Shown piece by piece: positions 5,697-8,224 of a stretch of 64,000 nucleotides of DNA (its first letter is position 1; the number at the start of each line of letters is the position of its first letter). The stretch lies in the IMG/VR virus record IMGVR_UViG_3300030419_008098, positions 1 to 64,000 of that record. One strand, 5' to 3'. The DNA is from a virus. A model generated the notes under the pieces. The model was not told the origin of the DNA and searched no databases. It worked only from the letters and a program-made list of their open reading frames with translations. A program made the position numbers and the translations under genes.

Positions 5697-5837
5697 GTTT
5701 CGCTCTACTTCACATTAGGAGGGGAATAAAAGAGGTATAAAACATTATACATTAGTATTTAAGTTTCGCTCTACTTAATTAAAAATGGTCGGGACGGATT
5801 TCGCTCTGAAGAACTGGATGCGAACCAGATTTCGCTC
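5697..5837 (-). CRISPR. Distal guide array: one degenerate 36-nt repeat plus short-handle units
   Basis: RTTTCGCTCT at 5697, 5763, 5798, 5829; 5697-5724 matches the 36-nt repeat at 27/28 positions and 5697 to 5763 is exactly 36+30 nt. Confidence 0.75.
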
Positions 5838-5928
5838 TAATAAGAAAGAAGATGCCTATTAATATAATCTCAAGGCTTTGAGTTCCCCCTGCGAACTAGG
5901 GAAGAACATTAAAATTTTTAAAGAACTG
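5829..5928 (-). ncRNA. Scaffold RNA copy A (omegaRNA/tracr-like)
   Basis: Hairpin 5882-5907, stem 5854-5876, ends in handle GAGCGAAAT, boxA-like 5917-5928; homologous to three other copies. Confidence 0.75.
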
Positions 5929-5948
5929 TTAGTTAAGGGCGTCCCTGC

Positions 5949-6006
5949 GTTTCGCTCTACTTCTGGATGATGGGGTTTCACTCACCTTTACAAGCAAGGC
6001 GGGCTA
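5949..6006 (-). CRISPR. Short-handle guide units downstream of scaffold B
   Basis: GTTTCGCTCTACTTC at 5949, GTTTCACTC at 5975, GTTTAGCTC at 6007. Confidence 0.6.
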
Positions 6007-6109
6007 GTTTAGCTCCCCTCCGTGAAGGAGATGCGTATTGATGTAATCGCAACGCTTTTAATTCCCCCTGCGAATTAGGGAAGAATATTTATAAAATTTT
6101 AAAGAACAG
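6007..6109 (-). ncRNA. Scaffold RNA copy B
   Basis: Hairpin 6061-6086, stem 6033-6055, boxA-like 6098-6109. Confidence 0.75.
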
Positions 6110-6134
6110 TTATTTAAGGGCGTCCCTGCTTACG

Positions 6135-6368
6135 GTTTCGCTCTACTTCAAATTCAGAGGAGTGCAAAACGAAACGAGTTTTTCGCCTTGCTTGTTTCAG
6201 GTTTCGCTCTACTTCAAATTCAGAGGAGTGCAAAACAAAGAAGTGGCAGATTGGCGGCATCTTTTAGTTTCGCTCTACTTCAAATTAGGAGGGGTGCGAA
6301 ACTATTACAGCCGAATTAACTGACCGACTAACGTTTCGCTCTACTTCAAATTAGGAGGGGTGCGAAAC
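6135..6368 (-). CRISPR. CRISPR array, 4 x 36-nt repeats, 3 x 30-nt spacers
   Basis: Repeats at 6135 and 6201 (GTTTCGCTCTACTTCAAATTCAGAGGAGTGCAAAAC), 6267 and 6333 (GTTTCGCTCTACTTCAAATTAGGAGGGGTGCGAAAC); strand inferred from promoter, nuclease and boxA orientation. Confidence 0.92.
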
Positions 6369-6431
6369 CGTCAGGGCTTTCATGCCGCTAAAGGGGTTGA
6401 ATTTCGCTCACCAAAACCCGTGGGAACTCTA

Positions 6432-6530
6432 ATTTCACTCCCCTCGGTGAAGGAGATGTCTTTTGATGCAATCTCAAGACTTTTAGTTCCCCCTGCGAAC
6501 TAGGGAAGAACTTTAAACTGTAAAGAACAT
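6432..6530 (-). ncRNA. Scaffold RNA copy C, starting at nuclease stop codon
   Basis: Hairpin 6486-6511, stem 6458-6480, handle at 6432, extra short handle at 6401, boxA-like 6519-6530. Confidence 0.75.
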
Positions 6531-7906
6531 TAACCGAAAACCGCTTTTTTTATGTTTTGGGCGGCATTTTGGTCACGCTCATGGTGTGTTCCACATTCGG
6601 GACACTCCCACTCGCGGTCAGTTAAGGACAATTCACTATTCCTGTAACCACAGCAAGAACAGTCTTGAGTGGTATAAGCAGGGGGAACTGCCTCAACTAC
6701 ATTACCCCTAAGCTCAGACTTATATGTTAATTGATTTTTAATATCATATATTCCTGCTTCAAGGGATTTTTTATTAATTGCTTGTTTTTGTTTATTAAAA
6801 AGTTTTTTATCTTTTTGGGTATTACCAACCATCTCTTTTACTTTATAATCTTCAAAAGCAATGCCATCGTAATTATTTGTTATTTGATGGGTGAAATTAT
6901 GGATGGCATCTTTGTGTTGGCGTGTTTGTTGGCGCTTAAGTTTACCCAATCTCTTGAGAAGTTTACGCCAATTATTTGAGCCGCGCTCCTTCAAAGACAG
7001 TTGTTGTTGAACTCGCAGAATACGATCCTCAAGTTTTTTATCCTTGGGGAAATTATATTTATTGTTTTGGTCGTCTATTACATTATCCTTAATCCCGAAA
7101 TCCAACCCAATAGTTTTAGTTGGCTTTTCCACAACAGGAGGTATTTTATTTGGGTCAAGAGCAATAGTAATACAGAGGTAAAACTCATTACCCTCTTTTG
7201 AGAGTGAAACCGTTTTCATTTTACCCCCTTCGGGGATGGGGCGGTGCATCACAAGCCTCATCGGCTCTTTTATCCCCGCTATTTTATTAAGTCGGCTGTG
7301 GGTTGGGCGCTCTTCATTTATAGTGATTGAATACTCGCCTTCTATTGGTTCACCCTCTGCATCTACAGTATTGGAGGTACTGATAAAACCCCCATCACAA
7401 AAATGAGTGGGATGAACAGGGAGGCGATTACCGCTTTCTTCTGCAAAATATTTTACACCTTTACCTTTAGTATACCAGCTAGACTTAACTTTGGGGGCAA
7501 CATGGTTTAGACACCTAGCTGACACCTTATTTAAAATCTCGTACCCCCAACATTCGCCCTCATCGTTCATGTAGCGGTTTGCTTTGAGGGATTTGTTTAT
7601 TATCCTTGTTTCTCCCGTTTTAAGTTTCTTTACTTTCTTATATTTGAACTCGGGCAAATTATCCAAGCCCTCTTTTTTGGTGCGCCATTGGGAGATTAAT
7701 TTATTCATGGCGGTGAAGTTTGGTGCGCCCTTGGCACTCTGAAACTCGGGGTAGTTCTCTATATCCCCCGCAATCCTGACGAATTCATTCACTACAATCT
7801 GAACAGCCTTCATTGCCTCGGTAACTTGGGCATACCACTCAGTTTCCTCAATCTTTTGACTACGAGTGAGGGGGAGGAGTCTATATTTATAAGTTATAGT
7901 TTTCAT
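6530..7906 (-). CDS. tnpB: TnpB/Cas12f-like RNA-guided RuvC endonuclease
   Basis: N-terminal TYKYRLLP; RuvC-I IGLDFG, RuvC-II IAFED, Zn finger YTTQDCSCCG..WECPECG, RuvC-III RDQNAAQNI; catalytic D-E-D all present. Confidence 0.9.
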   Translation of the reverse strand: MKTITYKYRLLPLTRSQKIEETEWYAQVTEAMKAVQIVVNEFVRIAGDIENYPEFQSAKGAPNFTAMNKLISQWRTKKEGLDNLPEFKYKKVKKLKTGETRIINKSLKANRYMNDEGECWGYEILNKVSARCLNHVAPKVKSSWYTKGKGVKYFAEESGNRLPVHPTHFCDGGFISTSNTVDAEGEPIEGEYSITINEERPTHSRLNKIAGIKEPMRLVMHRPIPEGGKMKTVSLSKEGNEFYLCITIALDPNKIPPVVEKPTKTIGLDFGIKDNVIDDQNNKYNFPKDKKLEDRILRVQQQLSLKERGSNNWRKLLKRLGKLKRQQTRQHKDAIHNFTHQITNNYDGIAFEDYKVKEMVGNTQKDKKLFNKQKQAINKKSLEAGIYDIKNQLTYKSELRGNVVEAVPPAYTTQDCSCCGYRNSELSLTDREWECPECGTHHERDQNAAQNIKKAVFG

Positions 7907-7963
7907 TTTTAAAAGTCCATGTCGAATGCCTCGGGTAGTCTTGAGGTCTCCGTGGAAGGTAGA

Positions 7964-8137
7964 ATTTCGCTCTTTCCTTAAGTTAAAGTTCAGCCTTGCC
8001 TAGTTTCGCTATTAAAGTGTGGCGTCATCGTACATATTTCGCTCTGTTAAAGCAACAATTGGATCATGTTTCGCAACCCAAGAGCTTAGCTCAGCTGGTG
8101 TTTCGCCTTGGAAGTAATACTCTCCACCTCGTTTCAC
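7964..8137 (-). CRISPR. Non-canonical mini-repeat guide array upstream of nuclease
   Basis: RTTTCRC at 7964, 8003, 8036, 8068, 8100, 8131 (spacing 39,33,32,32,31) with unique intervening sequences; motif equals the end of the 36-nt repeat. Confidence 0.75.
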
Positions 8138-8224
8138 TTTAGAAAAGATGCTCTTTGATGCAATCTCGGAGCTTTGGATTCCCCCTGCGAACTAGGGAAG
8201 AATTTTAAATTATTTAAAGAACTG
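8131..8224 (-). ncRNA. Scaffold RNA copy D, first element after the promoter
   Basis: Hairpin 8178-8203, stem 8150-8172, boxA-like 8213-8224. Confidence 0.75.

What the first reader, a model, noticed from the sequence alone, without database searches (positions are those of the whole stretch)
5829..8224. Four-copy structured ncRNA with clear compensatory base changes
Copies lie at 5829-5928, 6007-6109, 6432-6530 and 8131-8224. On the minus strand, stem 1 is RTTCTTCCCT-ARTTCGC-AGGGGGAAY, closing with G-C in copies A and C and A-T in B and D. The outer helix of stem 2 differs in every copy but always pairs: GCCT/AGGC (A), GCGT/ACGC (B), GTCT/AGAC (C), GCTC/GAGC (D). A variable third hairpin leads into the handle. 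Covariation among paralogs indicates selection on RNA structure rather than a DNA-level repeat. Several divergent scaffolds for one nuclease is unusual.
Basis: seen in the sequence. Interest (0 to 1): 0.88.

Follow-up and report, generated by a model that had tools for sequence, protein, structure and literature searches.

The report
Phage nuclease guide-RNA scaffolds, four copies
The four repeated ~95-base elements are real, structured RNA scaffolds (omegaRNA/tracrRNA-like, each fused to a half CRISPR repeat and a guide) that serve a small TnpB-derived nuclease carried by a lineage of marine phages, a natural in-between form of transposon guide RNA and CRISPR array.

Summary
Four copies lie at the stated coordinates, the minus strand is the functional one, and stems 1 and 2 carry compensatory changes.

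A model built from the four copies finds the same RNA next to every full-length homologue of the neighbouring 458-aa TnpB-like nuclease (6530-7906, minus strand; intact RuvC triad). These homologues come from about 15 marine phage or metagenome loci. In each locus one copy starts 1-4 nt after the stop codon and runs into a 36-nt-repeat CRISPR array. Most loci have further copies, each heading another array.

Each unit is composite:
- a boxA-like antitermination motif (GTTCTTTAAAA);
- stem 1;
- stem 2;
- hairpin 3;
- the last 7 nt of the repeat, then a guide.

The stem-1 loop is complementary to those last repeat bases, and the two covary in four classes across loci. This is the pseudoknot topology of the ISDra2 TnpB omegaRNA.

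My best reading is omegaRNA-like natural single-guide scaffolds of a phage-borne, TranC / type V-U-like system. It is a new variant of a known kind. Several scaffolds per nuclease is normal for this family and has published parallels.

No targets and no RNA data were found. The scan's other notes on this same genome had already raised the loop-handle pairing and the boxA idea.

The parts
8231..8259 (-). Sigma-70-like promoter (TTGACT, 17 nt, TG-GATAAT). It is the only consensus promoter on the minus strand inside the locus and probably drives scaffold D, the mini-array, the nuclease gene and the downstream modules.
   Evidence: The same promoter sequence sits directly before the nuclease gene in L071, which lacks scaffold D.
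8131..8222 (-). Scaffold D: boxA-like 8212-8222, stem 1 8178-8203 (loop AGTTCGC 8187-8193), stem 2 8150-8172, short hairpin 3 8138-8147, handle GTGAAAC 8131-8137.
   Evidence: (119 bits).
7964..8130 (-). Mini-array: five units of a 22-29-nt unique segment plus an 8-10-nt repeat remnant (RGCGAAAY), with periods of 31, 32, 32, 33 and 39 nt. It lies in the 5' leader of the nuclease gene.
   Evidence: There are five GCGAAAY matches within 143 nt, while the whole 64-kb window is expected to hold about 16 on both strands. An analogous scaffold plus short-repeat array lies upstream of the gene in L001 and L003.
6530..7906 (-). 458-aa TnpB-like RNA-guided nuclease with RuvC residues D269, E352 and D445 and a CxxC..CxxC zinc finger.
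   Evidence: Pfam OrfB_IS605 and Cas12f1-like_TNB. The triad aligns with ISDra2 TnpB D191/E278/D361 and is invariant in 17 homologues. The AF2 model (pLDDT 84.6) best matches ISDra2 and ISFba1 TnpB, then Cas12f and LaTranC.
6432..6528 (-). Scaffold C, starting 2 nt after the stop codon: boxA-like 6518-6528, stem 1 6486-6511 (loop 6495-6501), stem 2 6458-6480, hairpin 3 6439-6455, handle GTGAAAT 6432-6438.
   Evidence: (124 bits). The same position after the stop codon is seen in 13 homologous loci.
6401..6431 (-). First guide unit after scaffold C: 22 nt plus GAGCGAAAT.
6135..6400 (-). CRISPR array. Four 36-nt repeats (6333-6368, 6267-6302, 6201-6236, 6135-6170; two sequence variants) and 30-32-nt spacers. 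The repeats have complementary ends (GTTTCGC...GCGAAAC) and fold as hairpins.
   Evidence: (family D2).
6007..6107 (-). Scaffold B: boxA-like 6097-6107, stem 1 6061-6086 (loop AATTCGC), stem 2 6033-6055, hairpin 3 6014-6030, handle GCTAAAC 6007-6013. This is the only copy whose own handle mismatches the loop.
   Evidence: (122 bits).
5949..6006 (-). Guide unit B1 (23 nt plus GTGAGTGAAAC), then an 11-nt segment plus a 5'-truncated repeat (GAAGTAGAGCGAAAC).
5829..5926 (-). Scaffold A: boxA-like 5916-5926, stem 1 5882-5907 (loop 5891-5897), stem 2 5854-5876, weak hairpin 3 5836-5851, handle GCGAAAT 5829-5835.
   Evidence: (126 bits).
5697..5828 (-). Guide units A1 (21 nt plus AGAGCGAAAT) and A2 (25 nt plus AGAGCGAAAC; this guide is shared with L071), then a 30-nt spacer and a terminal repeat that has decayed at its 5' end (5697-5732).
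   Evidence: A2 matches L071:2343-2357.
5933..5948 (-). Conserved 16-nt linker GCAGGGACGCCCTTAA just upstream of the boxA motif of scaffold A; a second copy at 6114-6129 precedes scaffold B. It forms a small GGG/CCC hairpin. Its role is unknown; it may be a duplication scar or a processing site.
   Evidence: (family D5).

Best explanation
What each element is. Each of the four elements is a composite, transcribed module that produces guide RNA for the 458-aa TnpB-derived nuclease encoded between copies D and C. Reading 5' to 3' on the minus strand, a module contains:
1. A boxA-type antitermination motif. It keeps RNA polymerase going through long untranslated RNA, just after a promoter or a stop codon.
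2. A compact omegaRNA-like fold: stem 1, stem 2 and hairpin 3.
3. The last 7 nt of the CRISPR repeat (the 'handle').
4. About 21-23 nt of unique sequence that acts as a guide.

How it folds. The apical loop of stem 1 (UUCGC) pairs with handle bases -7 to -3 (GCGAA or GUGAA). This forms the guide-proximal pseudoknot that TnpB and all Cas12 proteins recognise. Each module is therefore a natural single-guide RNA. It also heads a run of further guide units.

Three kinds of further guide units follow the modules:
- Full 36-nt repeats, which carry their own copy of the anti-handle at the 5' end and fold as hairpins.
- 5'-truncated repeats.
- Handle-only mini-repeats.

What is shown:
- The RNA structure and the pseudoknot, by covariation.
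- The conserved position relative to the gene and the arrays.
- The intact nuclease active site.
- The absence of Cas1 and TnpA in the record.

What is inferred:
- Transcription of the whole 2.6-kb locus from the single promoter at 8231-8259.
- Binding of the scaffold by the nuclease.
- Use of the flanking sequence as a guide for DNA cleavage next to an unknown TAM/PAM.
- Loading of handle-only units through a scaffold loop acting in trans.
- The biological role, probably phage-versus-phage or phage-versus-mobile-element competition.
For: - Structure. Paralogs show six compensatory pairs and one broken cell, in hairpin 3. On 29 distinct family sequences, 95% of cells pair, 18 of 20 pairs have compensatory changes, and 0 of 500 shuffles reach this. 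The conserved U-G pair in stem 1 fits only the minus-strand RNA.
- Link to the nuclease. R1 matches occur in every family locus, on the gene strand. One copy starts 1-4 nt after the stop codon and runs into a 36-nt-repeat array. Others sit downstream of promoters and head further arrays.
- Pseudoknot. The loop class and the handle class of the array that follows associate perfectly: UUCGC with GCGAA, UUUGC with GCAAA, UUUAG with CUAAA, UUGAG with CUCAA. L075 and L001 each carry two classes in one locus, each scaffold with its cognate array. In the ISDra2 omegaRNA, bases -6 to -2 pair with bases inside the loop closed by stem 1, which is the same topology (PMC10097598).
- Scaffold ends in a half repeat. 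Hairpin 3 plus the handle is homologous to the 3' half of the repeat. The repeats fold as hairpins closed by their complementary ends.
- Protein. It has TnpB Pfam domains. Its fold is closest to ISDra2 and ISFba1 TnpB, then Cas12f and LaTranC. The RuvC triad is conserved.
- boxA. GTTCTTTAAAA is identical to the natural, experimentally active boxA of the Legionella pneumophila Lens CRISPR array (PMC7862264). The same motif lies between the promoter and the phage's tmRNA gene.
- Domesticated, not mobile. The record has no Cas1 or Y1 TnpA. Flanking genes are syntenic in related phages.
Against: - There is no direct evidence of transcription, processing or protein binding.
- No target was found for any guide.
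- The single copies do not fold better than shuffled sequence.
- Copy B's own handle (GCTAAAC) breaks the central pseudoknot pair.
- Copies A, B and C have no promoter of their own, so their expression depends on read-through.
- The full repeats carry their own anti-handle. It is therefore not clear that they need the scaffold at all, nor that handle-only units are functional rather than decayed repeats.
- The covariation counts rest on an alignment fitted to the model.
- The four pseudoknot classes represent at least three independent switches, not dozens.
Confidence: 0.8

Rival explanations
1. The scaffolds act only in trans, as tracrRNAs. After cleavage from their fused handle they supply the stem-1 loop and the protein-binding fold to crRNAs cut from the arrays. 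The 21-23 nt right after each scaffold would not be used as a guide.
For: The loop is complementary to every handle in the cognate array, not only to the fused one. Handle-only mini-repeats could form the pseudoknot only with a loop supplied in trans. In L073, L074, L076 and L077 the scaffold's own handle is degenerate, while the repeats that follow are perfect.
Against: In the window, L071 and L075 the fused handle is well kept and is followed by unique sequence at a fixed distance. Full repeats carry their own anti-handle and fold on themselves. No extended anti-repeat to the 5' half of the repeat was seen.
Confidence: 0.1
2. The elements are mainly cis-regulatory leaders: boxA plus a structured RNA that controls read-through or nuclease expression. 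Scaffold D in the 5' leader could be an autoregulatory natural sgRNA, like the long-form tracrRNA of Streptococcus pyogenes (recalled from memory, not checked here). They would not be guide scaffolds.
For: There is a boxA-like motif at the 5' end of 25 of 28 distinct copies. Scaffold D and its mini-array sit between the only promoter and the gene. L071 lacks this insert.
Against: This does not explain the loop-handle covariation, the half repeat at the 3' end, or the omegaRNA position after the stop codon. No guide matches the locus's own promoter or any other place in the record.
Confidence: 0.06
3. The copies are DNA-level repeats without RNA function: duplicated CRISPR leaders, or right-end remnants of repeated IS200/IS605 insertions.
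For: tnpB genes normally lie in IS elements whose right ends carry the omegaRNA. Databases label the family 'transposase'.
Against: Compensatory changes and strand-specific G-U pairs argue for RNA. The copies occur only around the single gene. There is no TnpA. The locus lies at a syntenic site in phages whose nucleases are only 50-60% identical to the window's.
Confidence: 0.03

Closest known systems
TnpB omegaRNA / reRNA (ISDra2, OMEGA systems; PMC10097598)
   Same: It is encoded on the gene strand at the 3' end of a TnpB-fold gene. It has a scaffold of about 95-116 nt followed by a 3' guide. The pseudoknot forms between the bases just 5' of the guide and the loop closed by the 5'-most stem. 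A hairpin (ISDra2 stem 4, hairpin 3 here) joins the 'tracr-like' and 'crRNA-like' parts.
   Different: There is no transposon: no TnpA and no element ends, and the site is syntenic in related phages. The guide is followed by repeat units, not by flanking target DNA. There are several copies per gene. A boxA motif sits at the 5' end. The scaffold does not overlap the coding sequence.
TranC / type V-U* CRISPR-associated TnpB derivatives (LaTranC 9jfo; 40 V-U branches in PMC10691335; phage-borne CauTranC9 in bioRxiv 10.64898/2026.03.27.714800)
   Same: The effector is TnpB-sized, with a short CRISPR array downstream of the gene and no adaptation genes. The guide RNA derives from splitting or duplicating an omegaRNA. 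Some members are phage-encoded.
   Different: Clade membership could not be tested because no clade sequences were available. Here the unsplit scaffold-guide form, the condensed palindromic repeats and the handle-only repeats coexist in one locus. Scaffolds are repeated two to four times.
Chimeric single gRNAs and 'omegaRNA arrays' of Cas12f-derived Sigma-TnpB / dCas12f-sigmaE loci (PMC10691335 section 12; PMC13472631)
   Same: A tracr-like scaffold is fused to a half repeat. The whole scaffold is duplicated to give several guides. There are loci with both full-length gRNAs and CRISPR arrays whose repeats resemble the scaffold's 3' end. A sigma-factor gene lies nearby here too (8580-9122).
   Different: Those proteins are nuclease-dead and lack RuvC-III and the zinc finger. 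This one keeps the full triad and the zinc finger. Those are bacterial (Bacteroidota) regulators, while this one is carried by marine phages. The sigma gene here is part of a conserved phage gene order and is absent upstream in L073 and L003.
boxA antitermination elements upstream of CRISPR arrays (Stringer et al. as cited in PMC7862264; L. pneumophila Lens boxA GTTCTTTAAAA)
   Same: The 11-mer is identical in scaffolds A and B. It sits at the start of a long untranslated array transcript.
   Different: Here it is reiterated inside one locus, before every scaffold, including 1-4 nt after the nuclease stop codon. It is phage-encoded. Nus factor binding was not tested.

Membership tests
TnpB omegaRNA (OMEGA guide RNA) | Encoded on the gene strand at or overlapping the 3' end of tnpB. 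| tested here: met
   Scaffold C starts 2 nt after the stop codon. The same holds in 13 homologous loci. Copies A, B and D lie elsewhere.
TnpB omegaRNA (OMEGA guide RNA) | Pseudoknot between the bases just 5' of the guide and the loop closed by stem 1. | tested here: met
   Four covarying loop/handle classes with perfect association. The topology matches ISDra2.
TnpB omegaRNA (OMEGA guide RNA) | Lies at the right end of an IS200/IS605 element, so that the guide is the flanking target DNA; TnpA or element ends are present. | tested here: not met
   No Y1 TnpA in the 96.7-kb record. The guides are followed by repeat units. The site is syntenic across related phages.
Type V tracrRNA (Cas12f / TranC type) | Complementarity to the CRISPR repeat (anti-repeat). 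| tested here: inconclusive
   A 5-nt anti-handle in the stem-1 loop covaries with the repeat's 3' end, which corresponds to R:AR-1 (the pseudoknot). No longer anti-repeat to the 5' half of the repeat was found.
Type V tracrRNA (Cas12f / TranC type) | A separate, trans-acting transcript. | not testable with these tools
   No RNA runs hold the locus.
Type V CRISPR-Cas (V-U* / TranC) | Single RuvC effector of TnpB descent with an intact catalytic triad. | tested here: met
Type V CRISPR-Cas (V-U* / TranC) | Adjacent array of regular direct repeats with unique spacers, conserved across homologues. | tested here: met
   Four 36-nt repeats with 30-nt spacers. Arrays lie downstream of the gene in all family loci with enough flank.
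Type V CRISPR-Cas (V-U* / TranC) | Assignment to a named clade or subtype by phylogeny. | not tested
boxA (Nus-dependent antitermination) | Sequence match to boxA, placed at the start of an untranslated transcript. | tested here: met
   GTTCTTTAAAA equals the L. pneumophila CRISPR boxA. It lies after a promoter or stop codon in family loci. It also precedes the phage tmRNA.
boxA (Nus-dependent antitermination) | Bound by NusB/NusE and suppresses Rho termination. | not testable with these tools
   The host is unknown and there is no experiment.
Any Rfam family | Match to a curated covariance model. | tested here: not met
   cmscan of 5000-9000 with E up to 1 gave only one chance-level lncRNA hit.

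The most novel reading that the evidence does not exclude
One TnpB-sized nuclease may be served by three grades of guide unit in a single phage locus: a full omegaRNA-like scaffold with a fused guide, condensed palindromic 36-nt repeats, and handle-only 7-10-nt mini-repeats. The mini-repeat guides would be loaded in trans through a 5-bp loop-handle 'address'. This address differs between scaffold/array pairs that share a locus (two codes each in L075 and L001). If so, this would be a living series of the omegaRNA-to-CRISPR transition. It would also be a natural modular, addressable split-guide system, with by far the shortest functional CRISPR-type repeats known.
Probability: 0.25. Interest if true: 0.85.

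Novelty: new variant of a known kind. Interest (0 to 1): 0.62.

Why it matters
How CRISPR arrays and tracrRNAs arose from the single omegaRNA of TnpB is an active question. Published work covers RNA splitting in TranC, condensed palindromic repeats predicted from the ISDra2 structure, and re-fusion in dCas12f.

This phage family appears to keep several of these states side by side under selection, with a pseudoknot that can be read directly from covariation. That makes the steps testable in one small system of a 458-aa protein and a ~95-nt scaffold.

It also matters practically. The system is a compact nuclease with a short natural single guide, and possibly with orthogonal loop-handle codes.

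It also shows that standard annotation ('transposase', no CRISPR call for the mini-arrays) hides such loci in viral metagenomes.

Tried and rejected
- **Rfam.** There was no family match.
- **Targets of guides.** There was no self-match of 14 nt or more in the 96.7-kb record. Among the 150 fetched loci the only matches were to the homologous array and its flank in L071 (guides A2 and A4). BLAST of both array regions against 50,697 isolate phages gave nothing credible. Exact scans of IMG/VR with three 22-nt spacer cores and with the guide shared by the window and L071 gave no match. The targets and the TAM/PAM therefore remain unknown.
- **Expression.** No RNA holder was listed for the locus. 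Only DNA contigs could be laid, so nothing can be said about transcripts.
The contigs of P0001, P0003, P0009-P0012 and others could not be fetched. Family loci came from the search for related loci instead.
- **Host.** The host is unknown.
- **'Guides look like tRNA fragments'.** Only two window guides resemble tRNA arms: D2 the D-arm and A1 the T-arm. Simple motif tests on 137 distinct family guides flagged few others, and cmscan found no tRNA match. I did not adopt this as a general rule.
- **Functional link between the sigma factor and the nuclease, as in dCas12f-sigmaE.** I rejected this as the main reading because the nuclease is catalytically intact and the sigma gene is missing upstream in L073 and L003.
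- **Named clade.** The supplements of the two classification papers are not held, so no V-U or TranC clade number could be assigned.
- **5' GUUCUUU pairing with the invariant AAAG after stem 1.** This is possible, but both sides are invariant, so it cannot be tested. The boxA reading is preferred.
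Full report
**Observation**

Read on the minus strand, each copy has four elements (exact coordinates):
- stem 1 (RTTCTTCCCT / ARTTCGC / AGGGGGAAY);
- stem 2, whose outer four pairs differ in every copy yet always pair;
- a variable hairpin 3;
- a 7-nt end, G[CT][GT]AAA[CT].

RNAalifold on the four paralogs gives 20 pairs. Six have changes on both sides and one cell is broken, in hairpin 3. The single copies do not fold better than shuffled sequence. The evidence for structure is therefore comparative.

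**Context in the window**

The 458-aa ORF at 6530-7906 (minus strand) lies between copies D and C.
- It carries the Pfam domains OrfB_IS605 and Cas12f1-like_TNB.
- Its AlphaFold model (pLDDT 84.6) is closest to ISDra2 and ISFba1 TnpB, then to Cas12f and LaTranC.
- D269, E352 and D445 align with the ISDra2 catalytic residues D191, E278 and D361. These residues and the four zinc-finger cysteines are invariant in 17 homologues.

The order of features on the minus strand is as follows:
1. a promoter at 8259-8231;
2. scaffold D;
3. five short units, each a 22-29-nt unique segment plus an 8-10-nt RGCGAAAY remnant;
4. the nuclease gene;
5. scaffold C, starting 2 nt after the stop codon;
6. one short unit;
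7. a CRISPR array of four 36-nt repeats with 30-nt spacers;
8. scaffold B, followed by one short unit and a truncated repeat;
9. scaffold A, followed by two short units, a spacer and a decayed terminal repeat.

Every scaffold ends in the last bases of the repeat. GCGAAAY is strongly concentrated here: 15 of the window's 20 minus-strand matches lie in 5697-8106. The consensus scan found no other minus-strand promoter inside the locus (the next one, at 5671-5644, serves the gene downstream) and no minus-strand terminator in the non-coding parts. One long transcript is therefore the simplest reading, but this is inferred.

**Relatives**

About 20 protein clusters are full-length homologues at 35-89% identity. 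Beyond them, only the RuvC half matches ordinary TnpBs. Databases call these proteins 'transposase'.

The loci came from IMG/VR and from marine metagenomes. The window itself is an IMG/VR virus record of 96.7 kb, estimated 69% complete.

A covariance model built from the four copies finds the scaffold in every family locus, always on the gene strand.
- One copy begins 1-4 nt after the stop codon and leads into a 36-nt-repeat array.
- Most loci have one or two more copies upstream, each behind a promoter-like sequence and each heading another array.

Several scaffolds per nuclease is therefore the family norm. On 29 distinct sequences, 95% of cells pair, 18 of 20 pairs show compensatory change, no shuffle out of 500 reaches this, and slid controls give 42-59% paired. 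That alignment was fitted to the model. The U-G pair conserved in stem 1 is compatible only with minus-strand RNA.

**Pseudoknot**

The stem-1 loop is complementary to repeat bases -7 to -3, and the two covary. Four classes occur: UUCGC with GCGAA, UUUGC with GCAAA, UUUAG with CUAAA, and UUGAG with CUCAA. The association across 28 distinct scaffolds is perfect. L075 and L001 each hold two classes in one locus, each scaffold followed by its cognate array.

In the window, GUGAA handles keep the pairing through a G-U pair. Only copy B's own handle (GCUAA) breaks it.

In the ISDra2 TnpB structure, bases -6 to -2 pair with bases -102 to -106. Those lie inside the loop closed by stem 1 (-116 to -111 paired with -91 to -86), and this guide-pseudoknot-stem core is conserved in Cas12 guides (PMC10097598). 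The topology here is the same.

Hairpin 3 plus the handle corresponds to the 3' half of the repeat. The full repeats additionally carry a copy of the anti-handle at their 5' end (GUUUCGC...GCGAAAC) and fold as hairpins. That is the 'condensed, palindromic' form predicted in the same paper.

**The 5' motif**

GTTCTTT(A/T)A is invariant in 25 of 28 distinct copies. I first considered it part of the fold. A note from this scan proposed boxA, and I tested that idea.
- The same motif lies between a consensus promoter and the phage's tmRNA gene.
- GTTCTTTAAAA is identical to the natural boxA of the Legionella pneumophila Lens CRISPR array. Adding that boxA to a synthetic array raised pre-crRNA about ten-fold (PMC7862264).
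- Its placement right after a promoter or right after the nuclease stop codon fits protection of untranslated RNA from Rho.

Binding by Nus factors was not tested.

**What it is not**

- It does not look like a mobile IS. There is no Y1 TnpA and no Cas1 in the record. The scaffolds occur only at this locus. Flanking genes are syntenic in L001/L002 and L075.
- It is not in Rfam.
- It is not the nuclease-dead sigma-associated Cas12f system, although a sigma-70-family gene lies about 300 nt upstream of the promoter.

**Mechanism proposed**

The locus is transcribed from the promoter at 8259-8231, with a boxA motif at each module. The nuclease binds each scaffold, and the loop-handle pseudoknot positions the next ~20 nt as a guide. 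Downstream units give further guides.
- Full repeats are self-sufficient for the pseudoknot helix.
- Handle-only units would need a scaffold loop supplied in trans.

The ribonucleoprotein then cleaves complementary DNA next to an unknown TAM/PAM. Targets were not found and no RNA data exist. Contigs from related metagenomes show possible array variants, but the support is weak.

**Comparison and novelty**

The closest known systems are:
- TnpB omegaRNA;
- TranC / type V-U* systems, including a phage-borne TranC;
- the chimeric gRNAs and omegaRNA arrays of Cas12f-derived regulators.

The kind of system is known. What is new here is the combination in one phage lineage: reiterated omegaRNA-like scaffolds that each head an array, reiterated boxA motifs, matched loop-handle codes within one locus, and mini-arrays with 7-10-nt repeat remnants. 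I rate it a new variant of a known kind, with interest 0.62.

Noticed in passing
window 8580-9122 (-): A sigma-70-family gene (Sigma70_r2 plus r4_2) lies about 300 nt upstream of the locus promoter. Homologues sit in the same relative place in L001/L002 and L075, but none was detected in L073 or L003. This recalls the sigmaE-dCas12f systems, but the nuclease here is catalytically intact. It is probably just conserved phage gene order.
   Followed up: partly
window 42847-43213 (-), leader to 43260: A phage-encoded tmRNA (tag AATSVLLTQIG). It is preceded by a TTGACA/TATAGT promoter and a TGTTCTTTGTAAA boxA-like motif, the same motif as at the scaffold 5' ends.
   Followed up: partly
window 8076-8099 and 5808-5828 (-): Two guides resemble tRNA arms. 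D2 is antisense to a TAGCTCAGCTGGT D-arm. A1 looks like CTGG-TTCGCAT-CCAG, a T-arm plus acceptor strand. This is not a general feature of the 137 family guides examined.
   Followed up: partly
window 6410-6431; L075:3767; L003:4953; L071:2155; L073:5507: Guides that begin with TAG are over-represented. Three divergent loci share TAGAGTTC as the first 8 nt of a scaffold-proximal guide and then diverge. This is unexplained. It could be a relic of an ancestral guide, an extension of the scaffold, or a shared target.
   Followed up: no
window 5773-5797 vs L071:2343-2365: One guide (CCGTCCCGACCATTT..AATTAAGT) is shared between the window and the phage whose nuclease is 85% identical. The neighbouring units differ, so the window has gained or L071 has lost whole units without any Cas1-Cas2.
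   Followed up: partly
L071:1-600: L071 has no scaffold D or mini-array. An HTH plus HNH-like ORF ends just before the same promoter, which there directly precedes the nuclease gene.
   Followed up: no
L075:3100-5664 and L001:4150-6675: Each of these two loci holds two different repeat families with different loop-handle codes around one nuclease gene. This suggests exchange of whole scaffold-array modules between phages, or selection for modules that do not cross-pair.
   Followed up: partly
window 5700-6400, run X3: Metagenome contigs of a related population show joints that skip 218-400 nt between scaffold and repeat units. This fits array variants made by recombination between repeats, but the anchor sides are short (20-36 nt), so the evidence is weak.
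   Followed up: no
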